Part shown: positions 8,191-31,518 of the stretch, piece by piece | How the letters are laid out: every line of letters begins with the position of its first letter | How positions within the stretch are numbered: position 1 is the first letter of the stretch | DNA from: a virus | Lineage: Duplodnaviria > Heunggongvirae > Uroviricota > Caudoviricetes | IMG/VR virus record: IMGVR_UViG_3300031555_010392 | Coordinates: 1 to 64,000 of that record | DNA length: 64,000 bases | Strand: one strand, 5' to 3' | Position numbers and translations under genes: made by a program | The notes under the pieces: generated by a model | Databases searched by the model: none | Told to the model about the DNA's origin: nothing | The model's input: only the letters and a program-made list of their open reading frames with translations

Positions 8191-8577
8191 TTAACCAGCG
8201 AGAATAACAGCGAAAGTAACGGCAATCTGGATCAGATGAGCAACCTGATCCTGCCAAAGATTAATGCAATGCTTATTGGCTTTCAGATCATCCACAATAA
8301 AGTGAATCAGTGTATTGATAATAAAGCCAACTACGAATAAGATGCCAACATCGCAATACACATATAAAGCAAGCGGGAGCATGATCATGAATGACCAGCT
8401 AAGGCTGTGCATCCACAGTGCCATAAGGTAGTCATTTTTATACAGGGAATCTGGCGCGTTTTTAACCCACCAGTCTTTCTGCTTCATCTGGGCAAGAACG
8501 CCCTGAAGAACATAGTCATCCAGCACATGCATGAAAACCATGCTCAAAAACACGAAAGGCAGACTAGGCATCATCAT
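8191..8577 (-). CDS. small integral membrane protein (DUF3307-like)
   Basis: 3-4 TM segments, HVLDDYVLQ motif; AAGGAGG RBS 10 nt upstream of MMMPSLP. Confidence 0.5.
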   Translation of the reverse strand: MMMPSLPFVFLSMVFMHVLDDYVLQGVLAQMKQKDWWVKNAPDSLYKNDYLMALWMHSLSWSFMIMLPLALYVYCDVGILFVVGFIINTLIHFIVDDLKANKHCINLWQDQVAHLIQIAVTFAVILAG

Positions 8578-19771: not shown

Positions 19772-20500
19772 TTATACGCCTCCATTTACACTATAAGCAC
19801 GAGCACGTTTTTCCATCTGTTCTCTTTCAAGCTTTGTCCAGTTGATCCAGCCATAAATACAATTGGCCGTCCAGCCAACATACATGGCAACCATAGACCA
19901 GTTCCCGGCAACCCACCACAGCTTGATGCAAAGCACATCAATGATCAGCCACCACAGCCACTGCTCACGATAGCGGCGAACCATGAGGATTTGTGCGAAA
20001 ATAGCCATGACATTGGTAGCAGCGTCTGTGTAAGCCTGCGCAGAACCAATAAGAGTGAGAATATGACCCATGGCGATTGTAGCAATGACGGTGCCAATGA
20101 TAGACAAGAGCCACTGAACAGGTGTAAAGACCAGAGCAGAAACGTCCTGAGTTCCATCCTCGTTGGTTTCCATGTTAGACTTCCAGACGAAGATGCCCCA
20201 AATCATGGTAACAAAGTACCAGAGGTTTTCAATGACTTCACCATAAAAGCGATTCTGCCATGCGAGAACCAGATAGGTGATCGTCTGTGCAAAGCCGATG
20301 AAATAGAAAGCCAGCTTGCCTTTGGCGCAGAGCACAACAGAAATGACGCCAGCAATACCGGCAATGATATTCAAAGGAGAATCAGGAACGATACAAAAAA
20401 CAACGATCTGCAAAGCGACCATTGACCACAAAAAAATCTTTTCAAAAGCGCTGTAACCCGTCCAGAAGGTACGGAGAAACCAAGACGAAATAGCCTTCAT
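19772..20500 (-). CDS. pnuC: nicotinamide riboside transporter PnuC-like membrane protein
   Basis: ~240 aa, 7-8 TM, Trp-rich loops, translationally coupled (ATGA) to NadR gene upstream. Confidence 0.65.
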   Translation of the reverse strand: MKAISSWFLRTFWTGYSAFEKIFLWSMVALQIVVFCIVPDSPLNIIAGIAGVISVVLCAKGKLAFYFIGFAQTITYLVLAWQNRFYGEVIENLWYFVTMIWGIFVWKSNMETNEDGTQDVSALVFTPVQWLLSIIGTVIATIAMGHILTLIGSAQAYTDAATNVMAIFAQILMVRRYREQWLWWLIIDVLCIKLWWVAGNWSMVAMYVGWTANCIYGWINWTKLEREQMEKRARAYSVNGGV

Positions 20501-21606
20501 CGATTCATTACCTCTTTTACATAATCAACAATAGTCATGAAGTTTTTGTAGTAATCGCCGCCATTCAAAAACACGACGCGATCCATAAGACCAGCATATT
20601 CCATATGACAAATCAGCTTATTCAGCAGCTCGTTTCTGCTGCCGATATCGGAATGATGCATGAAGCGGGTGTGATCATCTACAAAAGTATTTTTAGGAAC
20701 GAGACAGAAGATCTTATCCCATCGCGATTTCTGCGTTAACTCATCCGCCATAGCGGCTACACGCTGGTACTCTTCAGGAGTGATAGCGCAATGGGGGTCT
20801 TCGGAATACATTTGAGCATACATTTTGGTGACAAGCGAATCTGTATCAGCGAAGAATACACCATGGTTGCCAGGGCTATTGATGAGCTGTTTGTTCAAAT
20901 GATACTGGCCTTCAAGGAAAGCCATAAAATCTGCGCCGTCCAATTCCCAATCAGCAACACAGGATTCTTTCATATAATCCCTTGCCCATTCATAAGAACA
21001 GGGGGCATTGAAATACTTGCCAAGATCTTGAACAAGAGTGCTTTTGCCTTCTGAAGCTGTACCAGTGATTAGGATATTATGACTGAACACTCTGCGGAAA
21101 GGAGCGGCAATCTGATCCCAATGCTTAATAGGATTCTGACGGATCATGGTAGCGCAAATGGGATTAGTGGCTTTGCGATCTACAAGAATGACGTTCTCAT
21201 CCCACATGTCTTTCAGATCGCGAGCATAGTTTTCATCGCCAACATACCAGCAGCGGTCAAAGCCCGTAGCAGCCATATACCAAATGTTCTCAAACTCGTC
21301 CATCCAAACAGGCCAACCATTGGGATACTCTGCAATACCAAGTCTTGAATCATTAATAGAGTAAACGGCTACTTTGTCATCATCTGCAAAGAATTCGCGG
21401 ACATAACGATAGCGCTTGGCATGGGGCATAAGGGGTTCGCCTTTATCACCATCATAACCACAGACGATGACCAGGCAACCTCCCTCATTTTCTTTTTTGG
21501 CCCTCATGATCAGATCCAAATGCCCCTGATGGAGTGGGGCAAAGGAGCCAAAGACAATTCCCACTTTTCCTTCAAGGGGCTTCTGATAAGCATGAAAAGA
21601 AGTCAT
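20497..21606 (-). CDS. nadR: NadR-like bifunctional NMN adenylyltransferase / ribosylnicotinamide kinase
   Basis: FAPLHQGH (HxGH nucleotidyltransferase motif) and ITGTASEGKST Walker A of the kinase domain; start re-called to MTSFHAY (21606) with GGAGGT RBS. Confidence 0.8.
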   Translation of the reverse strand: MTSFHAYQKPLEGKVGIVFGSFAPLHQGHLDLIMRAKKENEGGCLVIVCGYDGDKGEPLMPHAKRYRYVREFFADDDKVAVYSINDSRLGIAEYPNGWPVWMDEFENIWYMAATGFDRCWYVGDENYARDLKDMWDENVILVDRKATNPICATMIRQNPIKHWDQIAAPFRRVFSHNILITGTASEGKSTLVQDLGKYFNAPCSYEWARDYMKESCVADWELDGADFMAFLEGQYHLNKQLINSPGNHGVFFADTDSLVTKMYAQMYSEDPHCAITPEEYQRVAAMADELTQKSRWDKIFCLVPKNTFVDDHTRFMHHSDIGSRNELLNKLICHMEYAGLMDRVVFLNGGDYYKNFMTIVDYVKEVMNR

Positions 21607-21732
21607 ATAAACCTCCAATTGACAAATATGGTAAAATAAAAATTGGTACGGTGCTCCGCGATGGGAGAATGGGCCTTCATAGATCATCTTGGGTAGCTAC
21701 TGCCTTAGACGACTATGAAAGGAGTGATGCAT

Positions 21733-21846
21733 ATGTTAGAGCATGTGAAAGTAATTTACTACGTCGGTAAATTTGTTTTTGATATGATTTCAACATGTGT
21801 GCTTGTCCTTACTTACGTAAGAAACAGCAAAACAGCCATGAACTGA
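21733..21846 (+). CDS. hypothetical small hydrophobic peptide (37 aa) on the opposite strand
   Basis: GAAAGGAG RBS 8 nt upstream of ATG in a 240-nt intergenic gap. Confidence 0.25.
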   Translation: MLEHVKVIYYVGKFVFDMISTCVLVLTYVRNSKTAMN

Positions 21847-21928
21847 CTGGCAGTTAGCTATGTTCAATGATCGATAAGTGGGCTATCCATCGCAGGCACC
21901 GTACCTTTATTGAAACCGCAAGGCGGGA

Positions 21929-22402
21929 TCAATCTATACCAAGGACGTAGTGGATGAAATTCTCGCGGCCGATGGAGTCAATAGCTTTTTTGCAATCCTC
22001 TTTTGTAGAGAAATAAGTTGATTCTCCAATGGCTTCGAGATCATTTTGAAACATAAAGCTATCAGAAGGGATATCGTACCAAACACTCCAATTAGCCCCT
22101 CTATTAAGAAACGGTCTTCCCATAGCACGATACATAGCTCGGTACTTGGCGCACTTGGCAGCATATTCACCTTCCGCGAGGGTTCGAAAACAATTTCCTG
22201 TTTCCGCGTAAGTTACATGCTCGGGATCTTGTGGACTGAAATTGCTTCGATAGCATACTTGGAAAAGAGTATTTACGAAACAAAAGGGCGAACCAATCTT
22301 TGGCCATTCTTTTGCTTTTTCAGCCTCAATAAGTTTCACTTTCAAAGTTTTAGCGAAGTTACTGTCCTTCATAGCTTCAGTCACAATGGCGTCAATGTTC
22401 AT
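21929..22402 (-). CDS. hypothetical protein (157 aa)
   Basis: GGAGGA RBS before MNIDAIV; ORF-track N-extension is read-through of tRNA genes. Confidence 0.5.
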   Translation of the reverse strand: MNIDAIVTEAMKDSNFAKTLKVKLIEAEKAKEWPKIGSPFCFVNTLFQVCYRSNFSPQDPEHVTYAETGNCFRTLAEGEYAAKCAKYRAMYRAMGRPFLNRGANWSVWYDIPSDSFMFQNDLEAIGESTYFSTKEDCKKAIDSIGRENFIHYVLGID

Positions 22403-22436
22403 CGAAATCCTCCTATATAACCAATTGCTGAACAAA

Positions 22437-22517
22437 TGGGGATAATGGGACTTGAACCCATACGCCGTTTGGCACCAGATCCTAAGTCTGGCGCGTCTGC
22501 CATTCCGCCATATCCCC
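22437..22517 (-). tRNA. tRNA-Leu(TAG): tRNA-Leu (anticodon TAG), type II with long variable arm
   Basis: 7-bp acceptor GGGGATA/TATCCCC, anticodon arm CCAGA-CTTAGGA-TCTGG, variable hairpin GCC-AAAC-GGC, T-arm ATGGG-TTCAAGT-CCCAT. Confidence 0.75.
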
Positions 22518-22528
22518 TTAAGAAAAAG

Positions 22529-22603
22529 TCGAGGTGGTGGGATTCGAACCCACGCTCTCCACATCCCAAATGTGGCGGGATAGCCAAACTTCCCTACACC
22601 TCG
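22529..22603 (-). tRNA. tRNA-Pro(TGG): tRNA-Pro (anticodon TGG)
   Basis: acceptor CGAGGTG/CACCTCG, anticodon arm CCACA-TTTGGGA-TGTGG, T-arm GTGGG-TTCGAAT-CCCAC. Confidence 0.75.
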
Positions 22604-22608
22604 ATAAA

Positions 22609-22766
22609 TAGCGATGGTGGGATTCGAACCCACGATGGCGCCTATGGCGCGAGAATTATTCAGTAAGACACCTTACAACTTAGCACCTTGGCCTTGAGCG
22701 CAGTTCTGCTACTACCCTTACTGAGATCGCGACTCTTCTCTGCTTCGTCCACTTACATACATCGCC
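22609..22766 (-). other. tRNA-like element: perfect T-arm + acceptor 3' strand at 22609-22640 pairing with GGCGATG at 22760-22766; ~158 nt, not a canonical tRNA
   Basis: GTGGGTTCGAATCCCAC T-arm identical to neighbouring tRNAs; no recognisable D or anticodon arm between; GCGCC-ATA-GGCGC hairpin before T-arm. Confidence 0.25.
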
Positions 22767-22956
22767 GATGCCCGTACTCTTACAACCGGCGGCTTAGGCA
22801 GAAGAAAGTGCTCTGTGAAGTAGATTCTTCTGCTTTATGAGCCACCCAGGCATGGTATAGAGCTTTTGTTTATCGGTACTCACAGGTACTCTAACCACCG
22901 TGTTTTCATTTCGCTTCAGCATTTACGCATTGGCAAGGAAAAACATAAACCTCTGG

Positions 22957-23028
22957 GCGCGGGAGATGGATTTGAACCATCGATCTTCAGCTCATGAGGC
23001 TGACGAGATACCACTTCTCTATCCCGCA
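22957..23028 (-). tRNA. tRNA-Met(CAT): tRNA-Met (anticodon CAT), CCA encoded
   Basis: anticodon arm TCAGC-CTCATGA-GCTGA, T-arm GATGG-TTCAAAT-CCATC, 3' ...TCCCGCG-C-CCA; 1:72 is T:G. Confidence 0.65.
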
Positions 23029-23203
23029 ATGTGGTGGCTCTACGGGCGAGGCCGTGCATGACCTCTATATGAGAGATTTCATCAGGCTATCTTCTTGGCG
23101 TTTCTATCAACGTCTATTAATGCACGCCAGTTGCGATCTGGCTGTGGCCAATATTTTTACCTGACTACTTGCGCACATATACTGCACTACCCATAGAGCG
23201 TGG

Positions 23204-23276
23204 TGGGACTGAGGGGAGTCGAACCCCTGGCACCCTGATTAAAAGTCAGGTGCTCTGCCAACTGAGCTACAATCCC
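23204..23276 (-). tRNA. tRNA-Lys(TTT): tRNA-Lys (anticodon TTT), CCA encoded
   Basis: GGGATTG TAGCTCAGTTGGCAGAGC ... CCTGA-CTTTTAA-TCAGG ... GGTTCGACTCC. Confidence 0.8.
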
Positions 23277-23353
23277 ATGTTGTCTCGGATTACGCGCCGA
23301 GTCGCGAGGTGCTGCGTGATAAGGAGCGTCGCAATTATGTGCCTTTCGGCTGG

Positions 23354-23435
23354 TGCGGCTGGTGGGATTCGAACCCACAATCCCATAGGGCGGGAGATTT
23401 TAAGTCTCCTGCATATGCCGTTCTGCCACAACCGC
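23354..23435 (-). tRNA. tRNA-Leu(TAA): tRNA-Leu (anticodon TAA), type II, CCA encoded
   Basis: anticodon arm GGAGA-CTTAAAA-TCTCC, long variable arm, T-arm GTGGG-TTCGAAT-CCCAC, A73. Confidence 0.7.
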
Positions 23436-23441
23436 ATGTAA

Positions 23442-23514
23442 TACCACGGGTGGGATTCGAACCCACAAACGCCTGATTTTGAGTCAGGATGATATGCCAA
23501 TTCTCTACCGTGGC
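23442..23514 (-). tRNA. tRNA with anticodon CAA (Leu codon UUG) but short type-I variable arm; identity uncertain
   Basis: acceptor GCCACGG/CCGTGGT (G1:U72), anticodon arm CCTGA-CTCAAAA-TCAGG, 5-nt variable CGTTT, T-arm GTGGG-TTCGAAT-CCCAC, A73. Confidence 0.5.
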
Positions 23515-23520
23515 ACGATT

Positions 23521-23550
23521 GTGGCTTCCTTTCGGTAACGACGAGCCACG
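23521..23550 (-). other. inverted repeat GTGGCT...AGCCAC hairpin just downstream of the SPFH gene (possible terminator/processing site)
   Basis: gtggcttcctttcggtaacgacgagccac; no U-tract. Confidence 0.25.
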
Positions 23551-23564
23551 CGCCGGTAAAATCA

Positions 23565-24479
23565 TTACTTCACTTCATCTTCAATATCAATACCGTCAAC
23601 AGTGATCAATGAACTTCCGCCAGAAACCTTGGGCAGTTCACCGTTCCATTGATCGTACTTGATTTTCTCAATCAACTCGCTCGTGAGAGAAGAGGCAATC
23701 TTCTTATTGGCTTCAGCCTCAGCCTCTGCCGCAATCAAGAGTGCCTCAGCTTCGGCTTCTGCGGTAATAATAGCCTGATCTGCCTTAATGCTAGCTACAT
23801 TCTTATCTTTTTCAGCCTGAATACGGGCAGTTTCGGCTTCAATACCCGCCAACTCCTGTTCCTGCTGAGCATTAACCTTCTTCTGGATGGCAGTAGCGGT
23901 CTCTTCATCCACAGTGATTTCCGTAAAGTTGACAGTATCGATCACGATACCATAAGCATCAAAGCGATTACGAAGGTGAGTGTCCAACTCTGCGTTAATC
24001 TCAGTACGTTTGTCGCCAAAGATATCAGTTACAGGATACTTGGCTGTGACTTCCTGTGTCCATGCCTTAACTTTGGGCTTAATAAAATCGTTCTTAACTT
24101 CGACGCCGGACTTACCCTTAAAGCGAATGAACGTTTCAGTAATGCGCTCGCGATCAAAATAATAAGAGAATTCCAAACTAACACGCACAGACTTACCATC
24201 TGAAGTGGGCACGGTGAAAGACTCATCCTTGGGGGAATCACCCTCGTTAGCAGCAGTCAGATAAGACTGCTCAACACCAATAGAGTAAGTAGTAACCGAT
24301 TTCATGGGAGAAACCACATGGAAACCCTGGTCCACAACTTCATCGCCGACACCGTTGCGCATATTGTAGACCACGCCAACATAACCGGCAGGGATGCGTT
24401 CCGTACAGCCAAGAACCACGATAAAAGCGATAATAATTACAATAGCAAACAAAAATGCACCAAGCTTACCTTTTGTCAT
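23565..24479 (-). CDS. SPFH/band-7 (prohibitin/stomatin/HflK-like) membrane protein
   Basis: N-terminal TM anchor, SPFH core (GYVGVVYNMRNG...FHVVSPM...), long C-terminal coiled coil rich in AEAEAE. Confidence 0.8.
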   Translation of the reverse strand: MTKGKLGAFLFAIVIIIAFIVVLGCTERIPAGYVGVVYNMRNGVGDEVVDQGFHVVSPMKSVTTYSIGVEQSYLTAANEGDSPKDESFTVPTSDGKSVRVSLEFSYYFDRERITETFIRFKGKSGVEVKNDFIKPKVKAWTQEVTAKYPVTDIFGDKRTEINAELDTHLRNRFDAYGIVIDTVNFTEITVDEETATAIQKKVNAQQEQELAGIEAETARIQAEKDKNVASIKADQAIITAEAEAEALLIAAEAEAEANKKIASSLTSELIEKIKYDQWNGELPKVSGGSSLITVDGIDIEDEVK

Positions 24480-24688
24480 TCAACAGTCTCCTTTGTTCCA
24501 GTTGGGTTATTAAGTCCATGAGAATTTTCTTCTGATATGGAAGAAGCAGTTGTGGGTTTGTCATCCATGTTATCCCGTGCATCTTTCCATAAGCGATGAG
24601 CCAAGCGGCCAAGAGGTCGGTATAGACACGAGAAGAGGAGCCACACGAGCGCAAGCCCGAGGATGACGAGAAAATAGAATACAGGCAT
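24476..24688 (-). CDS. small membrane protein, likely partner of the SPFH protein (NfeD-like role)
   Basis: MPVFYFLVILGLALVWLLFSCLY TM helix; overlaps SPFH start by 4 nt. Confidence 0.4.
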   Translation of the reverse strand: MPVFYFLVILGLALVWLLFSCLYRPLGRLAHRLWKDARDNMDDKPTTASSISEENSHGLNNPTGTKETVE

Positions 24689-24825
24689 TTGTTCTCCTTT
24701 CAAAAAGAATAAATAACCCCAGCGTCCGTAGAACATCGTATGCATCCGACTGGTTTCTAACGTACACAGAAGCAAGGTAATTACTCCCCACTGCTTATGC
24801 CGTCATACTACCAACTGGGGGCTGG

Positions 24826-24899
24826 CGAGCGATTAGGGATTTGAACCCCAGACCTACGGCTTAGAAGGCCGTTGCTCTATCCGACTGAGCTAATCGCCC
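24826..24899 (-). tRNA. tRNA-Arg(TCT): tRNA-Arg (anticodon TCT), CCA encoded
   Basis: GGGCGAT TAGCTCAGTCGGATAGAGC ACGGC-CTTCTAA-GCCGT ... GGTTCAAATCC. Confidence 0.8.
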
Positions 24900-25038
24900 A
24901 TAATATCTCCCGATCAGCGCCGTTATGCGTTTTATGTTCATTCACATAAAGGGTTGCGCCACACAAGTAGAAGGATCTACCCGTTTCCTTTTGCAACAGA
25001 GCGCTCTGAAACTTCCTTCGGCACCGATGGGGATTTGG

Positions 25039-25110
25039 AGCGGCAGACGGTAATCGAAACCGCGTCTTCGGTTTGGGAAACCGATACTCTAACCATTGAG
25101 CTACTACCGC
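25039..25110 (-). tRNA. tRNA-Gly(CCC): tRNA-Gly (anticodon CCC), CCA encoded
   Basis: GCGGTAG TAGCTCAATGGTTAGAG TCGGT-TTCCCAA-ACCGA ... GGTTTCGATTACC; acceptor pairs with CTGCCGC. Confidence 0.7.
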
Positions 25111-25122
25111 ATATTGGCTGAA

Positions 25123-25770
25123 TTAAGCAATTGAACGATAATCTTTTGTATGATAGGGTAGACCATACTTTTTGCACCATTTCCGTACAGTGTTATCTAT
25201 GACACCGTAGCGTCGAGCAAGTAACGTGAAATTGCCATGGTTTTCAATAAGAAGCTGGCTAAGTTCTTCTTTTGTCGGCCAATCAACTTTCTTTTTGCCA
25301 ACATGCGCACAGTGGCTGCACCTTTCTGCTAAACGAGTTATTTCCGCACCGCAATCTTTACAGTAATAAAAGTGTTTAAAATGATGAGACTTATTATTTC
25401 TTCCAGCATAAGTTCTTGTTTGCGAGTGACAATTAGGACACAACCATCGGAGATTGTCTAAAGTGTTGTTCTTATTATTTCCATCTTTATGGTCGAGCTG
25501 GAGAACGAGAGGTCTTCCATTCCATTCACCTTTATGACCACAAATTGCACAGACATACTCAACGTTTTCCAACTCACGGAAGCGTCTTTTTATTGCATTT
25601 ACAGAAACGCCGCTCATTTCTGTAAAAATTTCTTCGTCCGCATAAACCTTATGGCTTTTGTTTTGATAAAGAGGTGGTTTAATACCGTATTCTTTAAGTC
25701 GCTTTTTAACGACAGCGTAACTGCCCCCTTTATTTGACTTATAACCAAGATTGTTAATTAATTCTGCCAT
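25123..25770 (-). CDS. HNH homing endonuclease embedded in the tRNA array
   Basis: DHKDGNNKNNTLDNLRWLCPNCH HNH motif plus additional CxxC/HxxC pairs. Confidence 0.75.
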   Translation of the reverse strand: MAELINNLGYKSNKGGSYAVVKKRLKEYGIKPPLYQNKSHKVYADEEIFTEMSGVSVNAIKRRFRELENVEYVCAICGHKGEWNGRPLVLQLDHKDGNNKNNTLDNLRWLCPNCHSQTRTYAGRNNKSHHFKHFYYCKDCGAEITRLAERCSHCAHVGKKKVDWPTKEELSQLLIENHGNFTLLARRYGVIDNTVRKWCKKYGLPYHTKDYRSIA

Positions 25771-25859
25771 TGACTGACTATTAGCGGCAATCTGTGCAAG
25801 CTCTTCTTTTGAATAACGATCAACTAGTGCAGCTATCTTACGCGCCCCCCATTAAAAAG

Positions 25860-25930
25860 CAAGCCCGCTTGGATTTGAACCAAGAATGAAACCGTCAAAG
25901 GGTCTTGTGTTGCCATTACACCACGGGCCT
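25860..25930 (-). tRNA. tRNA-Gln(TTG): tRNA-Gln (anticodon TTG)
   Basis: AGGCCCG TG GTGTAATGGCAACAC AGACC-CTTTGAC-GGTTT ... CTTGG-TTCAAAT-CCAAG CGGGCTT G. Confidence 0.65.
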
Positions 25931-25958
25931 ATGAGAGGTCTGTTACCAGACCCAATGT

Positions 25959-26204
25959 CTACTTTTTAAGCTCAGAGAAGAACTTAATCAGATAAGGCTC
26001 ATCTTCTTTATTCATACAAAAGACTTCATAATATTCGCCATGCTCATCACACAGACGTCCAATGGCAATATACTGAGAAAAGGTGGACTTGAGGTTAAAC
26101 TCCTCAGTACCATCAACAGAGCGAATGACTACATCGCCCTTGCACTTTTTGACGGCTTCCATAAGGGAATTAACATCCTTTGCGTTTTTAAGAAGCATAA
26201 ACAA
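25959..26204 (-). CDS. hypothetical protein with HPr-like C-terminal pattern (KSxF...G...GEDE...LxKL) but no active-site His
   Basis: NLKSTFSQYIAIGRLCDEHGEYYEVFCMNKEDEPYLIKFFSEL resembles HPr/Crh Ser46 region and C-terminal half; weak. Confidence 0.3.
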   Translation of the reverse strand: MFMLLKNAKDVNSLMEAVKKCKGDVVIRSVDGTEEFNLKSTFSQYIAIGRLCDEHGEYYEVFCMNKEDEPYLIKFFSELKK

Positions 26205-26229
26205 CCTCCTTTCTTTGGTAAGAGTAAAA

Positions 26230-26302
26230 TGGGCCTACAAGGATTCGAACCTTGAACCGACTGGTTATGAGCCAGCTGCTCTAACCGTTGAGCTATAGGC
26301 CC
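26230..26302 (-). tRNA. tRNA-Met(CAT): tRNA-Met/Ile2 (anticodon CAT)
   Basis: GGGCCTA TAGCTCAACGGTTAGAGC GCTGG-CTCATAA-CCAGT ... CAAGG-TTCGAAT-CCTTG TAGGCCC A. Confidence 0.8.
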
Positions 26303-26308
26303 GTGTGG

Positions 26309-26393
26309 CGGAGAGTGTGAGATTTGAACTCACGGAGGTGTTACCCTCGCTGGTTTTCAAGACCAGATCCTTAAGCCACTCGGACAACTCTCC
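26309..26393 (-). tRNA. tRNA-Ser(TGA): tRNA-Ser (anticodon TGA), type II, CCA encoded
   Basis: GGAGAGT TGTCCGAGTGGCTTAAGGA CTGGT-CTTGAAA-ACCAG long variable arm ... TGAG-TTCAAAT-CTCA ACTCTCC G. Confidence 0.75.
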
Positions 26394-26593
26394 AAACCGG
26401 GGCTGCGCATTACAGGCTACGCAGCCAAAATATAAGTTTGTTCATCCTGTACTGAACGGGTGATTTGTGATCCTACGGTATACTATCCAGCCTTTTGTGA
26501 AATGGCGGCGCTGTACATAGATGAGTTCATCGCTCCTGATGACGACGATAGAATGACCGCTTAAAGGCGAAGAGGAAACCGCCGATCACATGG

Positions 26594-26666
26594 TGGAGCT
26601 GAAGGGTTACGATCCCTCTGCCTCCTGCTTGCAAAGCAGGCGCTCTGCCGATTGAGCTACAGCCCC
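26594..26666 (-). tRNA. tRNA-Ala(TGC): tRNA-Ala (anticodon TGC) with G3:U70, CCA encoded, atypical T-loop ATCGTAA
   Basis: GGGGCTG TAGCTCAATCGGCAGAGC CCTGC-TTTGCAA-GCAGG ... AGGG-ATCGTAA-CCCT CAGCTCC A CCA. Confidence 0.75.
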
Positions 26667-26678
26667 ATGAGGAGTGGA

Positions 26679-27173
26679 TTACCACTCCAGAATTTCAGTT
26701 ACAATAGGCTCTGCGACGAAACAGGAAAGTTCGCATGCGACTTTAACAGCTTCATGTTCATCATGCCCAAGATGGAATGCGGCCATAGCGAAGTCTTCCC
26801 CGCAGCCTATAGCGGCGAAATCTTTCACTTCGCATACAAACAGACCATGAATTTCAAACAGCTTGTTTTTATAGGCGAGCAAATAGTCGTTTTCCGCTTT
26901 GGCCTCGCCGTCATATTCCTTACGCCATTTGGTGAATTCGATCATATGATCCAAGATAGCCTTCTCACTTGCATCGGCAGGATTGTGAGTGGTGATGTAA
27001 TGCCAGAAGAGGCTGGCTTCCTGCGCGGATCCCGCACTGCCGACAACGATACCATTCTCCTTTTTAAGCTTGGTAAAATTACCTTTGGTATCTTTTGTCC
27101 AGCCATGGACAACAATGCTGTCGGCACTCATAACGATCTTATTAGGGTAAACCTTCGCACAAACGACGCTCAT
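26679..27173 (-). CDS. HslV/proteasome-beta-like Ntn peptidase (Ser1 nucleophile variant), 164 aa
   Basis: N-terminus MSVVCAKVYPNKIVMSADS aligns to HslV TTIVSVRRNGHVVIAGDGQ; GSAGSAQEA matches G-x-A-G-S/T-x-A-D-A; start at 27173 with GGAGG 8 nt upstream. Confidence 0.5.
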   Translation of the reverse strand: MSVVCAKVYPNKIVMSADSIVVHGWTKDTKGNFTKLKKENGIVVGSAGSAQEASLFWHYITTHNPADASEKAILDHMIEFTKWRKEYDGEAKAENDYLLAYKNKLFEIHGLFVCEVKDFAAIGCGEDFAMAAFHLGHDEHEAVKVACELSCFVAEPIVTEILEW

Positions 27174-27330
27174 ATATTGAACCTCCGTAAGATTTGTTAA
27201 AGGGGAGGGGCGCTTAGATGGTGCTATGTTCAGCAACGAAAGCAACCACAGCGCCCCACTGGAGCCCGGATAGGCGGCCAGCCGAGCTTATAGCTCTCAC
27301 AAAGAAAGGAACCAAGGCACCAGGCCTTTG

Positions 27331-27403
27331 GAGTGGCAGACGGGATTTGAACCCGCAAACAATCGCCTTGGAAGGGCGATGCTCTACCATTGAACTACTG
27401 CCA
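27331..27403 (-). tRNA. tRNA-Gly(TCC): tRNA-Gly (anticodon TCC), CCA encoded
   Basis: GTGGCAG TAGTTCAATGGTAGAGC TCGCC-CTTCCAA-GGCGA ... GCGGG-TTCAAAT-CCCGT CTGCCAC T. Confidence 0.8.
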
Positions 27404-27507
27404 CGCACAATTCCCGCTTATTGACCGAAAGGGGAATGTGGCGAACGGAGTGGGTTGACCAGACCCTACATGAAAGAGGTACCACCAGTGCCTAACCTGG
27501 CAGTTGG

Positions 27508-27581
27508 AGCCGGTGAAGGGACTTGAACCCCCAACCTGCTGATTACAAATCAGCTGCTCTGCCTTCTTGAGCTACACCGGC
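27508..27581 (-). tRNA. tRNA-Thr(TGT): tRNA-Thr (anticodon TGT), CCA encoded
   Basis: GCCGGTG TAGCTCAAGAAGGCAGAGC GCTGA-TTTGTAA-TCAGC ... GGGGG-TTCAAGT-CCCTT CACCGGC T. Confidence 0.8.
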
Positions 27582-27591
27582 ATGAGGAAGG

Positions 27592-28392
27592 CTAAGGCCT
27601 CCCGCGTTTTTTGCCTTCGTCTGTGAGGCAGAAGTGGAACAGTGTATCATTCACCTTTTCTCTGAGGAAATCTGCAGTCTTGAAGCTCAGAGGAGGAAGC
27701 TCGTCCAGAAGCGCTTTGCGGATATCCGTCATTTCCTGATCCCAGGAAGCGATCTCGCTTTCTACAAAATATTTAGGAAAGGACTCGAGTTTCAGGCTGA
27801 TCAGGTATCTGCGGTCTTCCTCTTCGGGAATGAGATACAAGCCATCGGCTGCTCTGAAACTGCGAAGCATAACGAGGAGACGATACAAATGAGACGCGCT
27901 TTTTCCGTCATAGCCTGTGTCGGGGTGATCAGCCTCTTTTGATTTCATACCAGATTTGATTTTGATAAAGCTTCCACAAAGCGCTTTTACGAAAGATGGC
28001 GCCAGATCTTTAAGGAGGCTATACCGCTTTTCCAGGATCCACTCAAACAAATCGATGTTTTCATCAACGATCAAGTAGTAAGGCGTATACAGAGCTTCAA
28101 TATAGGAAGGATTGCATTTGATCACGGCATCCATGAAAGCTCTGATATCCTTCAGGTCGATAAAGCCATTTCCATAATGAAGAGAAGTGGAAAGCGGGGC
28201 TCCGCCTGCAACCAGGTCTTCCAACCTTGGGAGGATGACGCATTTGAAATCAAAGTCTGACTGATACTTGTCTGAAGAAATATCCAGACCATAATTCTGA
28301 CTGCCAGCCAGGCATACGAAGATGGGATGATACCCAAGGCTTCTTACATAAGAAGCGGCCTCGTTAAGTTCCTTGGAGTAGTTTTTAAGCAT
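27592..28392 (-). CDS. Pol-beta-superfamily nucleotidyltransferase with C-terminal helical domain (KNTase/ANT-like two-domain architecture), function unknown
   Basis: hhhhAGSQNYGLDISSDKYQSDFDFKCVIL = GS...DxD NTase signature, third acidic in GFIDLKD; AAGGAG RBS; sits immediately after the tRNA array. Confidence 0.55.
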   Translation of the reverse strand: MLKNYSKELNEAASYVRSLGYHPIFVCLAGSQNYGLDISSDKYQSDFDFKCVILPRLEDLVAGGAPLSTSLHYGNGFIDLKDIRAFMDAVIKCNPSYIEALYTPYYLIVDENIDLFEWILEKRYSLLKDLAPSFVKALCGSFIKIKSGMKSKEADHPDTGYDGKSASHLYRLLVMLRSFRAADGLYLIPEEEDRRYLISLKLESFPKYFVESEIASWDQEMTDIRKALLDELPPLSFKTADFLREKVNDTLFHFCLTDEGKKRGRP

Positions 28393-28412
28393 TTATGAAA
28401 CACTCCTTGCTA

Positions 28413-28883
28413 TTACAAAACCTGATAGAAATACTGGAGATCAACCCAGCCTTTATCTTTGATATAGCCCCAACCGTTTACGATCCTTGCTACGGTAATC
28501 TGCTCGTTGGTCTGAACCCAACCAACGAATTTGCCTTCAGGTGTTTTGCGGAGCCTTACGCGTCCGCCAGAGGTGTTGACATATTTTGCAGAGTCCCTTG
28601 TTTCAGAAAGATAATCTGCACTGCACCAGACAGTTCCGGTTTCGCCGCCGTACACTTCAATCCAATTGCCATTGACATTGCCGGTAGGGTTAACGCTTTC
28701 TCCCCTGAAAAACCGAGCTTCTATTGCTGCGGTCTTGGAGGGCTCTGCTCGTCCATTCAGCTCAGTAGCTGTTACATACAGCTGACTACCCAGGGCGGTA
28801 TTTACTGCGAAAATGGTAATTAGTGATATTATAAGTTTGAAAGAAGAGCAAATAAAATTAGTGGCGTTTTTCATAACGTCCAT
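28413..28883 (-). CDS. membrane-anchored/secreted protein with two SH3b-like domains
   Basis: N-terminal hydrophobic anchor; repeats NGNWIEVYGGETG...YL and GWGYIKDKGWVDLQYF typical of bacterial SH3. Confidence 0.5.
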   Translation of the reverse strand: MDVMKNATNFICSSFKLIISLITIFAVNTALGSQLYVTATELNGRAEPSKTAAIEARFFRGESVNPTGNVNGNWIEVYGGETGTVWCSADYLSETRDSAKYVNTSGGRVRLRKTPEGKFVGWVQTNEQITVARIVNGWGYIKDKGWVDLQYFYQVL

Positions 28884-29055: not shown

Positions 29056-29104
29056 GGTTTAGCTCCTTGCTACGATATTATAATATCACTAATAAATGAT
29101 CTTG

Positions 29105-29560
29105 TCAACACTTTTCTTCGAAAATTTCAAACTTTTTTTGAGAGTCGATCCCGCCGAAATATACCCAGTGTTTTGTCTCCATATTGACCTCCAAGTGGAT
29201 GGGCATGAGCAGATGAGCATAATTCAAAATGAGATGATTCTGCAGATCAGAAAGAGAGAAAACATGGTCTTCACACTTGGTTTTCATCAGTTCACCATCA
29301 TCGCTGAAGGAAGTACTATAGGAACGCATGTGGAACATAACCCTTCCCATGCGGTACAGATCAACAATAACGTCTTCCAACTTGCTGAAAACAAGATGGA
29401 TGATGTCATCCGTCCCATCTTTATAAAGGATATTTTTAATATTGGCTAAATGAGAATGGGCATCAGATTCATGCAAGGATGCATATGCGGCGCCAAGTGA
29501 AGTAGAGGCATGCTTTTTACCATCGGGAGTAATTGTGAGAAACTTAGAAACGTAATGCAT
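29105..29560 (-). CDS. hypothetical protein (151 aa)
   Basis: GGAGG RBS upstream. Confidence 0.45.
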   Translation of the reverse strand: MHYVSKFLTITPDGKKHASTSLGAAYASLHESDAHSHLANIKNILYKDGTDDIIHLVFSKLEDVIVDLYRMGRVMFHMRSYSTSFSDDGELMKTKCEDHVFSLSDLQNHLILNYAHLLMPIHLEVNMETKHWVYFGGIDSQKKFEIFEEKC

Positions 29561-29723
29561 GAGAACCGCCTCCTGAATCGTATATTATGTAACTGAATTC
29601 TCGCATGGTCTCGAGAAGTTACTGTTCATTTGCCTACGTAGAAATTATACCAAACATATGTTCGTATTTTCAATGCAAAAAATATGGTAATGAAAAAGCA
29701 CCGCACGCAGCAGTGCTTTTTCA

Positions 29724-30269
29724 TTACATGTGACAAATGACTGCGATGATGAAGATCGCGATCAAGATGATTCCGAGGATTGCCATGGGCTCTTCTTCTT
29801 TTTCTTTCTGTTTGCGCTCCTCGATGATTTCTGCGGCCGTTTTAAGATGAGGGGGATTTGCAAAGAAGCTTGTAAGATGCCGCTCTTTGGGAGGGATGCC
29901 CATGGCAGCACACCATTTCTGATATTCTTCAGAGATATTGCCCCAAGCAGGATTCCAGCCCATGATATCCCGGTCTACAAAAAGGTGAATGCCAAATGCA
30001 GGCTTATGAACACGATAGAGCCACTGATCTTTGGTATAGTATTCCTTCCACGACTCACTTGTCATGCGATTGGGAAAGAGATATCCAAGCGGCTGGTCGG
30101 GATATCTTTCACGCATCTCTGCAAGATTCCTGGAGGCCGCTGTGCCAAAGACTTTGGCATCGTGGATCTTCATCTGCTTTTGGATTTCCTGATAATGCTT
30201 TTCCTGACTGTGCTGTGAAGCGGCACATGCAATGCCTACGGCAGCCGCTGTGAACAAATCTTTTGCCAT
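29724..30269 (-). CDS. hypothetical protein with C-terminal TM anchor
   Basis: GGAGG RBS; C-terminal ILGIILIAIFIIAVI. Confidence 0.45.
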   Translation of the reverse strand: MAKDLFTAAAVGIACAASQHSQEKHYQEIQKQMKIHDAKVFGTAASRNLAEMRERYPDQPLGYLFPNRMTSESWKEYYTKDQWLYRVHKPAFGIHLFVDRDIMGWNPAWGNISEEYQKWCAAMGIPPKERHLTSFFANPPHLKTAAEIIEERKQKEKEEEPMAILGIILIAIFIIAVICHM

Positions 30270-31330: not shown

Positions 31331-31518
31331 TATTCTTCCTCCTCGTCGCTCTCAACTTTATAATCTTTTACTTCAATGTCCCAAATTGAGCAGCAATAAC
31401 CTTCATCATTCAGGCCCTTCATAACAGCTTCTTCAGGGTTGTTTGCTTCTGCGCTAACCTGTACATGAACCATGGCATCCACATTATATATCTTCACTTG
31501 GGTCATCCTCCAACTCAT
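31330..31518 (-). CDS. hypothetical small acidic protein (C-terminal DEEEE)
   Basis: ORF in array. Confidence 0.35.
   Translation of the reverse strand: MSWRMTQVKIYNVDAMVHVQVSAEANNPEEAVMKGLNDEGYCCSIWDIEVKDYKVESDEEEE

What the first reader, a model, noticed from the sequence alone, without database searches (positions are those of the whole stretch)
22437..27581. 14-gene tRNA array carrying an HNH endonuclease, an HslV-like peptidase and an HPr-like gene
Seen in sequence, all on the minus strand:
- The tRNAs are Leu(TAG), Pro(TGG), Met(CAT), Lys(TTT), Leu(TAA), a CAA-anticodon tRNA, Arg(TCT), Gly(CCC), Gln(TTG), Met(CAT), Ser(TGA), Ala(TGC), Gly(TCC) and Thr(TGT).
- Almost all carry T (U34) at the wobble position, so they read A-ending codons. 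Many encode their own CCA end.
- Several share an identical T-arm, GTGGGTTCGAATCCCAC.
- Protein genes are embedded between the tRNAs: SPFH plus its membrane partner, an HNH endonuclease, an HPr-like ORF and an HslV-like peptidase. A Pol-beta nucleotidyltransferase follows directly.

Inference:
- This is a phage translation-support island that compensates for A/T-rich phage codon usage.
- The embedded HNH gene may be a homing element.
- The array might be processed by the adjacent nucleotidyltransferase.
Basis: partly seen in the sequence, partly recalled or inferred. Interest (0 to 1): 0.6.

Follow-up and report, generated by a model that had tools for sequence, protein, structure and literature searches.

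The report
Phage tRNA array with embedded genes
This is a real cluster of 14 tRNA genes, interleaved with a few small protein genes, in a phage of gut Clostridia; such clusters are well known from large phages, so it is a well-documented example with a few unusual tRNAs, not a new kind of system.

Summary
ARAGORN and Rfam both call the same 14 minus-strand tRNAs at 22437-27581 (51-75 bits; threshold 29). All five protein labels hold at superfamily or fold level.

Corrections to the details:
- U34 occurs in 10 of 14 tRNAs, and CCA is encoded in 9 of 14.
- The shared T-arm is in 3 tRNAs plus one orphan copy.
- The two 'Met' tRNAs differ. One is initiator-derived but non-canonical; the other looks Ile2-like.
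- The CAA tRNA lacks the long variable arm of bacterial tRNA-Leu.

The element sits in an SPbeta-like phage whose relatives include Clostridia prophages. In those relatives only the SPFH gene and its small membrane partner are conserved. The tRNA count ranges from 0 to 20.

The codon-compensation reading is only partly supported. The phage is not A/T-rich at third positions (GC3 46%, A3 20%), and several cognate codons are its rarest. The host is unknown.

The HNH gene looks like a free-standing homing endonuclease, as in T4 (segB) and T5. No HNH-less allele was found.

The nucleotidyltransferase is a divergent RlaP-like enzyme, not a CCA-adding enzyme.

Verdict: a new member of a known kind, of modest interest.

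The parts
27505..27581 (-). tRNA-Thr (TGT), CCA encoded; begins 10 nt after the nucleotidyltransferase stop codon
   Evidence: (65.7 bits)
27329..27404 (-). tRNA-Gly (TCC), CCA encoded
   Evidence: (65.9 bits)
26679..27173 (-). HslV/proteasome-beta superfamily protein, 164 aa. Ser2, Asp18, Lys35 and a G-x-G motif are conserved across the family. It is not an HslV equivalog.
26591..26666 (-). tRNA-Ala (TGC), CCA encoded; begins 12 nt after the HslV-like stop codon
   Evidence: (62.5 bits)
26306..26393 (-). tRNA-Ser (TGA), class II, CCA encoded
   Evidence: (53.5 bits)
26230..26302 (-). CAT-anticodon tRNA without an encoded CCA. Its acceptor stem is GGGCCUA with C4:G69 and C5:G68. It is probably Ile2 (lysidine type, reading AUA), but elongator Met is not excluded.
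   Evidence: (74.8 bits); isotype not tested with isotype-specific models
25959..26198 (-). 79-aa protein with an HPr/Crh fold. It has no His15 equivalent but keeps an NLKS motif like the Ser46 site of HPr.
25859..25930 (-). tRNA-Gln (TTG), no CCA encoded
   Evidence: (56.8 bits)
25123..25770 (-). Free-standing HNH endonuclease, 215 aa, with zinc-ribbon and HTH modules and 38% GC. The ancestral N-terminus is still in frame upstream (to 25851), with ATA where relatives have ATG.
25036..25110 (-). tRNA-Gly (CCC), CCA encoded; begins 12 nt after the HNH stop codon
   Evidence: (67 bits)
24900..25035 (-). Structured spacer between Gly-CCC and Arg. A long closing stem forms; z = -3.55, and 0 of 200 shuffles fold as well.
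24823..24899 (-). tRNA-Arg (TCT), CCA encoded
   Evidence: (68.9 bits)
24476..24688 (-). 70-aa protein with a hydrophobic N-terminus (one predicted membrane helix, by eye). It overlaps SPFH by 4 nt and is conserved beside SPFH in relatives.
23565..24479 (-). SPFH/Band-7 protein; the only widely conserved anchor of this region in related phages
23441..23515 (-). CAA-anticodon tRNA of class I: a 5-nt variable loop, A73 and no encoded CCA. It shares the D-loop GGCAUAU and the T-arm with the neighbouring Leu-TAA tRNA.
   Evidence: (51 bits)
23351..23435 (-). tRNA-Leu (TAA), class II, CCA encoded
   Evidence: (56.8 bits)
23201..23276 (-). tRNA-Lys (TTT), CCA encoded
   Evidence: (72.8 bits)
22954..23028 (-). 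Initiator-derived CAT tRNA with an A11:U24 pair; its best E. coli match is metY. It is non-canonical: U1.G72, C73, G37, and the three G:C pairs of the anticodon stem are not kept.
   Evidence: (61.8 bits)
22609..22766 (-). tRNA-like remnant. It has an acceptor-like stem, a variable-arm-like hairpin and a perfect T-arm (22617-22633). About 73 nt sit where the anticodon arm should be. Its last 29 nt are 86% identical to the 3' end of tRNA-Pro.
22528..22603 (-). tRNA-Pro (TGG), no CCA encoded
   Evidence: (65 bits)
22437..22517 (-). tRNA-Leu (TAG), class II, no CCA encoded
   Evidence: (62.2 bits)
27592..28392 (-). Pol-beta-fold nucleotidyltransferase, a divergent RlaP-like (PF10127) protein, immediately upstream of the array
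29080..29727 (-). Candidate start of the transcription unit. A strong terminator-like hairpin (29727-29687) is followed by two promoter-like sites that match 11 of 12 consensus positions and have a TG extension (29673-29644 and 29108-29080).
   Evidence: consensus matches only, inferred

Best explanation
What it is
The region is the tRNA gene array of a large SPbeta-like phage; relatives sit inside Clostridia genomes and the window encodes an integrase, so it is probably temperate. It lies in a hypervariable accessory region whose only conserved anchor is an SPFH gene and its small membrane partner.

How it most likely works
- All 14 tRNAs and the interleaved ORFs are on one strand. They are packed so tightly that they are most likely transcribed as one long mixed precursor. 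All five ORFs that run directly into a tRNA stop 10-49 nt before it. The likely promoters are sigma-70-type sites near 29.1-29.7 kb (inferred).
- Host RNase P and host 3'-end enzymes would then cut the tRNAs out. The same cuts would separate the small mRNAs (inferred).
- The tRNAs decode purine-ending codons only. Ten have U34. C34 tRNAs serve GGG and UUG. There is one probable AUA reader and one initiator-type tRNA. None reads a pyrimidine-ending codon. This is a superset of the eight-tRNA set of phage T4.
- The tRNAs therefore add decoding capacity for codons that are rare in the phage and probably poorly served by the host. They may also replace tRNAs that host nucleases deplete during infection. 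The data cannot separate these two roles.

The embedded genes
- The HNH gene is a free-standing homing-type endonuclease that lives in the array, as segB does in T4 and the F-Tfl genes do in T5.
- The HPr-fold, HslV-like, SPFH and RlaP-like genes are accessory cargo of the same hotspot. They are not demonstrated parts of a tRNA machine.
For: Shown
- 14 tRNAs with high covariance scores.
- Single strand and ORF-to-tRNA gaps of 10, 12, 28, 12 and 49 nt.
- Phage identity and prophage relatives in Clostridia, including a complete genome, AP018533.1.
- In 112 related loci the SPFH gene is always present, because it was the search anchor. The partner is usually present. The tRNA count within +/-10 kb ranges from 0 to 20, and tRNAs often start 70-900 nt after SPFH.
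- The HNH, HPr-fold and nucleotidyltransferase homologues are sporadic and not syntenic.
- The HslV-like gene sits in non-tRNA contexts in other phages.
- HNH homologues sit in different inter-tRNA slots in L027, L047 (three copies) and L083/085/087. The HNH gene has the lowest GC of the region, 38% against 44%, and matches a homing-endonuclease model.
- 9 of the 14 window tRNAs, and 134 of 223 distinct tRNAs in relatives, have AT at positions -2/-1, against a background of 7.9%. This fits selection on 5' processing.
- The class-I CAA tRNA and two relatives in L065 keep 96.7% of stem positions paired, with 13 pairs changed on both sides. It is therefore not a decayed pseudogene.

Precedent
- T4 SegB lies in the tRNA cluster and recognises the T-arm motif (PMC2330249).
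- segB is widely linked to tRNAs and can amplify them (PMC13096335).
Against: - There are no expression or processing data. The promoter and terminator calls are consensus matches only, and the promoter count is not above the shuffled expectation (24 found, 18.5 expected).
- The host is unknown, so neither codon compensation nor tRNA depletion can be tested.
- The phage's own use of the cognate codons is low to average.
- Three tRNAs depart from canonical identity rules: the initiator-type tRNA, the class-I CAA tRNA, and the CAT tRNA of uncertain isotype. Their charging and use are unverified.
- No HNH-less allele of this phage was recovered. The contigs that carry the neighbouring genes and reach the site all carry the HNH gene.
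Confidence: 0.7

Rival explanations
1. Pure codon compensation. The phage uses A-ending codons more than its host, and the U34 tRNAs close that gap.
For: - 10 of 14 tRNAs have U34.
- In the codon families served by the array, A-ending codons make up 29.7% in replication genes and 24.6% in other ORFs. They make up only 14.5% in the host-like PnuC, NadR and SPFH genes (Fisher p = 1.6e-12).
- The anticodon set is a superset of the T4 set, the classic case for this model (from established knowledge of T4).
Against: - The phage is not A/T-rich at third positions: GC3 is 46% and A3 is 20%.
- CTA, TTA, ATA and GGG are among the rarest codons in the phage itself.
- Two tRNAs read G-ending codons, and one is initiator-type.
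- The proxy for host usage is three genes of uncertain history, and the host is unknown.
- A study of mycobacteriophages found no codon-usage signal for phage tRNAs (PMC10264068).
Confidence: 0.3
2. A counter-defence island. The tRNAs replace host tRNAs that are cleaved by anticodon nucleases or other tRNA-targeting defences. Some carry changes that make them insensitive. The RlaP-like nucleotidyltransferase and the nearby HAD_SAK_2 phosphatase heal damaged tRNA ends. The HNH gene spreads or amplifies the locus.
For: - The initiator-type tRNA has an altered anticodon loop and stem: G37, and G39 in place of C39. The initiator tRNA is a known VapC target (PMC10264068).
- Eight of nine members of the nucleotidyltransferase family match RlaP. 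RlaP extends damaged RNA 3' ends (PMC12776372).
- A HAD_SAK_2 'RNA repair' domain protein lies at 31484-32047, with E = 1.7e-24.
- The NAD-salvage genes PnuC and NadR flank the array.
- SegB-driven amplification of a tRNA gene defeats the Septu defence (PMC13096335).
Against: - No RNA ligase or polynucleotide kinase was found among the ORFs scanned.
- The window protein itself scores below the RlaP threshold, at 15.1 bits against 23.
- No host tRNAs are available to show that the phage versions differ at nuclease sites.
- The nucleotidyltransferase is not syntenic with the arrays in relatives.
- No PADLOC hits other than the HNH.
Confidence: 0.25
3. Largely selfish accumulation. The array is a recombination hotspot where tRNA genes, endonucleases and other accessory genes pile up through endonuclease-driven gene conversion and T-arm-mediated recombination. 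It gives the phage little benefit.
For: - The tRNA count ranges from 0 to 20 among relatives that share the same SPFH anchor.
- There is an orphan T-arm and a tRNA-like remnant at 22609-22766.
- A 17-nt T-arm is repeated exactly four times.
- Several HNH copies sit within one related array, L047.
- Relatives with no tRNA near SPFH exist.
Against: - All 14 tRNAs keep high covariance scores.
- Stems show compensatory changes between phages.
- The 5' leader motif is conserved across 223 tRNAs.
- These features point to purifying selection on function.
Confidence: 0.1

Closest known systems
Phage T4 tRNA gene cluster with the segB homing endonuclease
   Same: - A cluster of tRNA genes on one strand with an endonuclease ORF in an inter-tRNA spacer.
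- The window's anticodon set includes all eight T4 anticodons: Gln-UUG, Leu-UAA, Gly-UCC, Pro-UGG, Ser-UGA, Thr-UGU, Ile-CAU and Arg-UCU. The T4 list is from my own knowledge.
- SegB recognises the T-arm motif (PMC2330249). Here one 17-nt T-arm is repeated four times.
   Different: - The endonuclease here is HNH with zinc-ribbon and HTH modules, not GIY-YIG.
- The phage is an SPbeta-like phage of Clostridia, probably temperate, not a lytic T-even phage.
- The array is larger and carries four further protein genes.
- Homing has not been shown here.
[quoted passage not shown]
   Same: HNH-family endonuclease ORFs lie inside a phage tRNA gene cluster (cited in PMC2330249). The related locus L047 has three HNH-like ORFs in one array.
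   Different: No sequence relationship to the T5 enzymes was tested. T5 carries tRNAs for nearly all amino acids, whereas this array serves only purine-ending codons.
tRNA arrays of cluster C1 mycobacteriophages (anti-nuclease hypothesis)
   Same: A multi-tRNA array in which some tRNAs carry unusual anticodon-loop sequences. Codon usage does not obviously explain the set (PMC10264068).
   Different: Host tRNAs and host nucleases are unknown here, so insensitivity cannot be inferred.
RlaP nucleotidyltransferases (PF10127), including T4 NrdC.11
   Same: A Pol-beta fold with a G-S...D-x-D motif. Eight of nine family members match PF10127. RlaP is common in large phages (PMC7824862, PMC12776372).
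   Different: The window protein is below the Pfam threshold. No adjacent RNA ligase was found, although that association defines RlaP.
HPr and Crh of Firmicutes
   Same: The same beta-alpha-beta-beta-alpha-beta-alpha fold, with TM about 0.6 to Crh and HPr. An NLKS motif sits at the start of helix 2, like the Ser46 site. The B. subtilis sequence used for that comparison is from memory.
   Different: There is no significant sequence match to PF00381, and the catalytic His15 position is not conserved. It is a separate family of about 80-aa proteins, with 141 cluster representatives.

Membership tests
tRNA (Rfam RF00005) | Cloverleaf covariance score at or above the gathering score of 29 bits | tested here: met
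   All 14 score 51-74.8 bits. ARAGORN agrees.
Phage tRNA cluster with a free-standing homing endonuclease (T4 segB / T5 F-Tfl type) | An endonuclease ORF lies in an intergenic spacer between tRNA genes of a phage | tested here: met
   The HNH ORF at 25123-25770 lies between tRNA-Gln and tRNA-Gly-CCC. The phage context is shown.
Phage tRNA cluster with a free-standing homing endonuclease (T4 segB / T5 F-Tfl type) | The endonuclease gene is present in some close relatives and absent from others at the same site | tested here: inconclusive
   Family members occupy different inter-tRNA slots in L027, L047 and L083. Contigs of this phage that reach the site all carry the gene. No empty site was recovered. 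DNA pattern scans of the viral and metagenome collections found nothing.
Phage tRNA cluster with a free-standing homing endonuclease (T4 segB / T5 F-Tfl type) | The enzyme cuts the endonuclease-less allele and is inherited preferentially in mixed infection | not testable with these tools
   This needs enzyme assays and phage crosses.
HNH endonuclease (PF01844) | Pfam score at or above 21.4 bits, with the H-N-H residues and flanking CxxC pairs | tested here: met
   22.9 bits. The sequence CAICGH...LDHKDGNNKNNTLDNLRWLCPNCH is seen in the translation.
HslV (NCBIfam TIGR03692 / NF003964 equivalogs) | Score at or above the curated cutoff (157.75 / 137 bits) and an N-terminal Thr nucleophile | tested here: not met
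   19.9-20 bits only. The residue after Met1 is Ser, which is nearly invariant in the family. Membership holds only at superfamily level: phrog_1040 at 1e-22 and PDB HslV at 1.5e-5.
HPr phosphocarrier (PF00381) | Sequence match to PTS-HPr and the phosphorylatable His15 | tested here: not met
   The window protein has no match. Three of 68 family members match weakly, the best at E = 0.011. There is no His at the start of helix 1 (sequence). The fold matches.
RlaP nucleotidyltransferase (PF10127) | Pfam score at or above 23 bits | tested here: inconclusive
   The window protein scores 15.1 bits, E = 0.018. Eight of nine family members match, the best at 2.3e-6. Three homologues carry a precomputed PF10127 hit.
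RlaP nucleotidyltransferase (PF10127) | Genomic association with an RNA ligase | tested here: not met
   No RNA ligase was found among the ORFs scanned. Only an ATP-dependent DNA ligase-type protein is present, at 8574-10091. The genome extends beyond the window.
CCA-adding enzyme (PF01743 PolyA_pol) | A class II nucleotidyltransferase head domain | tested here: not met
   No PF01743 match. Fold matches to the tRNA-processing enzyme 3wfp are weak, with probability about 0.1.
SPFH / Band 7 (PF01145) | Pfam score at or above 23.6 bits | tested here: met
   86.6 bits.
SPFH-NfeD operon | The partner gene encodes an NfeD-family protein | tested here: not met
   The 70-aa partner has no Pfam, PHROG or NCBIfam match.
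Bacterial initiator tRNA | An A11:U24 pair and overall similarity to initiator genes | tested here: met
   The D-stem GAGA/UCUC gives A11:U24. The best E. coli match is the tRNA between argG and rimP (metY), with four matching places per genome.
Bacterial initiator tRNA | A C1xA72 mismatch, A73, and three G:C pairs at 29-31/39-41 | tested here: not met
   The tRNA has U1.G72, C73, and anticodon-stem pairs A29:U41, G30:C40 and C31:G39, plus G37.
Bacterial tRNA-Leu (class II) | A long variable arm | tested here: not met
   The CAA tRNA is 73 nt without CCA and has a 5-nt variable loop. A73 and a Leu-like D-loop are present.

The most novel reading that the evidence does not exclude
The region is a counter-defence island, not a codon-matching device, and has three working parts. 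(1) Replacement tRNAs, some with deliberately non-canonical features. Examples are an initiator-type tRNA with a changed anticodon stem and loop, and a short-arm Leu-like tRNA whose closest relative in a sister phage is an amber-suppressor-type tRNA. (2) An RNA end-healing arm: the RlaP-like nucleotidyltransferase and the HAD_SAK_2 phosphatase. (3) A homing endonuclease that spreads or amplifies the locus. Together these would keep translation running when host nucleases attack tRNAs.
Probability: 0.2. Interest if true: 0.6.

Novelty: new member of a known kind. Interest (0 to 1): 0.3.

Why it matters
Phage tRNA arrays with resident homing endonucleases have been known since T4 and T5, so the finding does not change the picture.

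Its value is as a clean, well-annotated example from an uncultured SPbeta-like phage of gut or rumen Clostridia. In this lineage the array can be compared across more than 100 related loci. That comparison yields several testable leads:
- A lineage-wide (A)UAU leader directly before the mature tRNA 5' end.
- A recurrent short-arm Leu-like tRNA family that includes a suppressor-type member.
- An initiator-derived tRNA that breaks the usual initiator rules.
- A Crh/HPr-fold protein that recurs inside the arrays.

If the tRNAs turn out to be nuclease-resistant replacements, the locus would extend the anti-defence view of phage tRNAs to Clostridia.

Tried and rejected
- No cultured phage resembles the region at the DNA level. 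Only single tRNAs match, at 86-90% identity.
- Searches for closer relatives or an HNH-less allele failed. The HslV-like protein has no relative in IMG/VR. Exact tRNA-Gln patterns found nothing in the viral or metagenome contigs. Exact-protein look-ups returned only contigs with the same gene order.
- Deciding the isotype of the CAT tRNA at 26230 failed. Phage records annotate every hit as tRNA-Met, and there is no E. coli match.
- Stop-codon recoding was considered because relatives carry CTA, TCA and TTA tRNAs. The window reads well in code 11, and the density gains under other codes are unspecific. Rejected for this window.
- A group I intron or a known small RNA in the spacers is rejected. 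No Rfam match appears even at E up to 5, apart from antisense-tRNA artefacts and the orphan T-arm.
- A 'tRNA with intron' call at 22609-22766 appears only at ARAGORN's lowest threshold. I treat it as a remnant, not a gene.
- The idea that the HslV-like gene is functionally tied to tRNAs is rejected. In other phages it sits beside helicase and ribonucleotide reductase genes, or beside methylase genes.
- A defence-system identity for the embedded proteins is rejected. There are no PADLOC hits except homing-endonuclease and ZorE-type HNH models for the HNH gene.
- An RNA ligase or kinase partner for the nucleotidyltransferase was not found among the ORFs scanned.

Full report

Yes. ARAGORN reports exactly 14 tRNA genes in the 64-kb window. 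Rfam's tRNA covariance model calls the same 14 independently at 51-74.8 bits, against a gathering score of 29, with E-values of 5e-8 to 1.5e-14. A permissive Rfam scan of 21600-28500 adds nothing real. It finds only antisense-tRNA artefacts and an isolated T-arm.

Reading the genes corrects three details:
- U34 occurs in 10 of 14 tRNAs, not 'almost all'.
- A genomic CCA is present in 9 of 14.
- The T-arm GTGGGTTCGAATCCCAC is shared by three tRNAs (Pro, Leu-TAA, CAA). A fourth, orphan copy lies at 22617-22633.

**2. The embedded protein genes**

Every label holds at superfamily or fold level. None holds at the level of a named enzyme.

| Gene | Coordinates | Evidence |
|---|---|---|
| SPFH | 23565-24479 | Band_7, 86.6 bits |
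| Partner | 24476-24688 | 70 aa with a hydrophobic N-terminus (one predicted membrane helix, by eye); overlaps SPFH by 4 nt; found beside SPFH in 38 of the first 80 related loci; not NfeD |
| HNH | 25123-25770 | Passes PF01844; phrog_10822 at 1e-40; PADLOC homing-endonuclease model at 3e-18 |
| HPr-like | 25959-26198 | 79 aa from the ATG at 26198; fold match only (see below) |
| HslV-like | 26679-27173 | 164 aa from the ATG at 27173; superfamily match only (see below) |
| Nucleotidyltransferase | 27592-28392 | Divergent RlaP-like protein (see below) |

The HNH family is large, with more than 700 homologues. Most members are 236-246 aa. In the window, the ancestral N-terminus (ALVDRYSKEELAQ...) is still in frame upstream of the ATG, and ATA stands where relatives have ATG. 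A 215-aa short form also exists elsewhere (P0195), so the short form need not be defective.

The HPr-like ORF has no significant sequence match in Pfam, PHROGs, NCBIfam or the PDB. It belongs to a family with 141 cluster representatives. The AlphaFold model has pLDDT 94, and its top 15 PDB matches are all HPr, Crh or NPr, with TM about 0.6. The family lacks a His15 equivalent but keeps a nearly invariant L-x-S in an NLKS motif.

The HslV-like ORF matches phrog_1040 at 1e-22 and reaches HslV, BPH and proteasome beta subunits in the PDB by profile search. It is far below the HslV equivalog cutoffs. Its family conserves Ser2, Asp18, Lys35 and a G-x-G motif. By position, this suggests an N-terminal-nucleophile hydrolase that uses Ser instead of Thr. 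That is an inference.

The nucleotidyltransferase has the G-S...D-x-D signature and a kanamycin-nucleotidyltransferase/HalB-type fold. Eight of nine family members match RlaP PF10127, but the window protein itself is sub-threshold. It has no CCA-adding enzyme domain.

**3. What genome is this?**

- The window is 44% GC.
- It encodes a DnaE-type polymerase that is 42% identical to SPbeta YorL and 37% identical to the polymerases of Enterocloster phages.
- It also encodes a helicase, a primase, a ligase and an intein-bearing DnaB, as well as a tyrosine integrase.
- The exact proteins occur on several JGI and ENA metagenome contigs.
- SPFH relatives at 60-72% identity lie on 80 IMG/VR viral contigs.
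- They also lie in 32 bacterial assemblies, almost all Clostridia (Oscillospiraceae, Lachnospiraceae, Acutalibacteraceae). One is the complete 3.56-Mb genome of Clostridiales bacterium CCNA10, so that copy is an integrated prophage.

The element is therefore part of an SPbeta-like phage of Clostridia, probably temperate. Its exact host is unknown.

**4. Architecture**

All features are on one strand and tightly packed. The five ORFs that run directly into a tRNA (nucleotidyltransferase, HslV-like, HPr-fold, HNH, SPFH) end 10, 12, 28, 12 and 49 nt before it. This leaves no room for separate promoters or terminators. The best promoter-like sites match 11 of 12 consensus positions and have a TG extension. 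They lie upstream at 29673-29644 and 29108-29080, just after a strong terminator-like hairpin. I infer one mixed tRNA-mRNA transcript, which host RNase P and 3'-end enzymes cut into tRNAs and short mRNAs. This has not been shown.

A feature that fits selection on processing is the base pair AT directly before the mature 5' end:
- It occurs in 9 of the 14 window tRNAs.
- It occurs in 134 of 223 distinct tRNAs in related loci, against a background of 7.9%.
- 74 of those 223 have ATAT.

From my own knowledge, U at -1 and A at -4 are favoured by bacterial RNase P. That link is inference.

**5. Comparison with relatives**

Across the related loci, only SPFH and its partner are conserved. The tRNA count within +/-10 kb ranges from 0 to 20, and tRNAs often start 70-900 nt after SPFH.
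- HNH homologues occupy different inter-tRNA slots in L027, L047 (three ORFs) and L083/085/087.
- HPr-fold homologues also sit inside the arrays of L027, L065 and L110.
- The HslV-like gene lies in unrelated contexts in other phages.
- The nucleotidyltransferase is not syntenic with the arrays.

The region is therefore an accessory hotspot, not a fixed multi-gene machine.

**6. The tRNAs themselves**

The set serves purine-ending codons only:
- U34 tRNAs for Leu (CUN and UUR), Pro, Ser (UCN), Ala, Gly, Thr, Lys, Gln and Arg (AGR).
- C34 tRNAs for GGG and UUG.
- Two CAT tRNAs.

It contains all eight anticodons of the T4 set. The T4 list is from my own knowledge.

Three tRNAs are unusual.

(a) The CAT tRNA at 22954-23028 is initiator-derived.
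- Its best E. coli match is the tRNA between argG and rimP, which is metY. There are four matching places per genome.
- It has the A11:U24 pair typical of initiators.
- It departs from the initiator rules with U1.G72, C73 and G37, and it keeps only G30:C40 of the three canonical G:C pairs.
- Homologues in L027 and L047 share the U1 start.

(b) The CAT tRNA at 26230-26302 has an Ile-like acceptor stem (GGGCCUA, with C4:G69 and C5:G68). It is probably the lysidine-type AUA reader. This rests on remembered identity rules and was not tested.

(c) The CAA tRNA at 23441-23515 has only a 5-nt variable loop, unlike bacterial tRNA-Leu.
- It keeps A73 and shares the D-loop and T-arm of the neighbouring Leu-TAA tRNA.
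- Its closest relative in the collected loci is a class-I tRNA with a CTA (amber-suppressor-type) anticodon in L065. L065 also has a class-I CAA tRNA.
- Across these three tRNAs, 96.7% of stem positions pair, and 13 pairs have changed on both sides. No shuffle reaches this, and slid controls give 33-47% pairing.
- With only three sequences this is suggestive rather than statistical. It does argue against a decayed pseudogene.

**7. Does the array compensate for codon usage?**

In 14,804 codons from 58 window ORFs, GC3 is 46%, and third-position A is the second-rarest base at 20%. The cognate codons are average or rare. RSCU values are CTA 0.29, TTA 0.45, ATA 0.48, GGG 0.54, CAA 0.81, TCA 0.88, GGA 0.89, GCA 0.99, CCA 1.01, ACA 1.02, AAA 1.09 and AGA 1.25.

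The premise of an A/T-rich phage is therefore not met. The host is unknown, so the real test, phage against host, cannot be made. One indirect hint keeps compensation alive. In the served codon families, A-ending codons make up 29.7% in replication genes but 14.5% in the three host-like genes PnuC, NadR and SPFH (p = 1.6e-12). These genes could still reflect host usage. That is an assumption.

The main alternative is that phage tRNAs replace tRNAs destroyed by host nucleases (PMC10264068). Evidence consistent with it:
- The altered initiator-type tRNA.
- The RlaP-like enzyme. RlaP adds 1-2 nucleotides to damaged RNA 3' ends (PMC12776372; see also PMC7824862).
- A HAD_SAK_2 'RNA repair' domain protein at 31484-32047.
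- The flanking NAD-salvage genes.

Against it, no RNA ligase or kinase was found. The evidence is contextual only.

**8. The HNH gene as a mobile element**

- It has the lowest GC of the region, 38.3%, with GC3 31%.
- It has an intact H-N-H/CxxC core and DNA-binding HTH modules. One homologue carries a NUMOD1 domain.
- Family members occupy non-equivalent slots in related arrays.

This matches T4 segB, which lies between tRNA genes and recognises the T-arm motif (PMC2330249). It also matches the T5 F-Tfl genes, which that paper cites. A 2026 study shows that segB is widely linked to tRNAs and can amplify them (PMC13096335).

Two local features may be scars of such recombination:
- The four identical 17-nt T-arms.
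- The tRNA-like remnant at 22609-22766, whose last 29 nt are 86% identical to the 3' end of tRNA-Pro.

That link is inference. No HNH-less allele of this phage was recovered.

**9. Verdict**

It is a phage tRNA array with a resident homing-type HNH gene and assorted accessory genes, which is a known kind of feature. The codon-compensation story is plausible but unproven, and its stated premise is wrong. The nucleotidyltransferase is not a CCA-adding enzyme.

Modest novelty lies in the non-canonical tRNAs, the lineage-wide leader motif, and the recurrence of an HPr/Crh-fold protein inside such arrays.

Noticed in passing
window 11682-14315 (-): The DnaB-like replicative helicase (877 aa) is interrupted at about residues 220-590 by a LAGLIDADG/Hom_end insertion, probably an intein with its own homing endonuclease. 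If so, it is a second mobile element in the window.
   Followed up: partly
window 31484-32047 (-): A 187-aa protein matches PF18143 (HAD domain of 'Swiss Army Knife' RNA repair proteins) at E = 1.7e-24. It lies 3 kb upstream of the RlaP-like nucleotidyltransferase. No RNA ligase or kinase was found among the ORFs scanned.
   Followed up: partly
window 19772-21687 (-): A PnuC nicotinamide-mononucleotide transporter and a NadR-type NMN adenylyltransferase/kinase lie directly downstream of the array. These are NAD-salvage genes. L124 carries both at 63-66% identity, also among tRNAs.
   Followed up: partly
window tRNA 5' flanks; loci L011-L126: The dinucleotide AT directly precedes the mature 5' end in 9 of 14 window tRNAs and in 134 of 223 distinct tRNAs of related phages. 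ATAT does so in 74 of the 223. The background frequency of AT is 7.9%. This may be an optimal RNase P leader.
   Followed up: partly
window 22609-22766 (-): A tRNA-like remnant upstream of tRNA-Pro. It has an acceptor-like stem (GGCGAUG/CAUCGCU), a hairpin resembling a class II variable arm, and a perfect T-arm. About 73 nt sit where the anticodon arm should be.
   Followed up: partly
window 24900-25035 (-): The 136-nt spacer between tRNA-Gly-CCC and tRNA-Arg folds much better than shuffled sequence (z = -3.55, 0 of 200 shuffles). A long stem joins its two ends. It could be a processing site or a small stable RNA.
   Followed up: no
L065 12841-12916; L079 8964-9039; L125 4139-4211: Related phages carry tRNAs with stop-codon anticodons: CTA, TCA and TTA. 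The CTA tRNA of L065 is the closest relative of the window's class-I CAA tRNA. Recoding was not evident in the 20-kb loci.
   Followed up: partly
window 25959-26198 (-); L027 7113-7316; L065 5792-6016; L110 5882-6100: The 79-aa HPr/Crh-fold protein has homologues inside the tRNA arrays of at least three other related phages. The family keeps an NLKS motif like the Ser46 site of HPr but has no His15.
   Followed up: partly
window 26679-27173 (-): The HslV-like family (42 clusters) has a nearly invariant Ser directly after Met1, plus invariant Asp18 and Lys35. This suggests a proteasome-type hydrolase with a serine nucleophile. No HslU-like ATPase was seen nearby.
   Followed up: partly
window 56559-57473 (+): A tyrosine recombinase/integrase (PF00589, E = 1.9e-16). 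This fits a temperate lifestyle.
   Followed up: no
window 25771-25851 (-): The 27 codons upstream of the HNH start are in frame and align with the N-terminus of full-length family members. ATA stands at the position of their ATG. The open frame begins 5 nt after the end of tRNA-Gln.
   Followed up: yes
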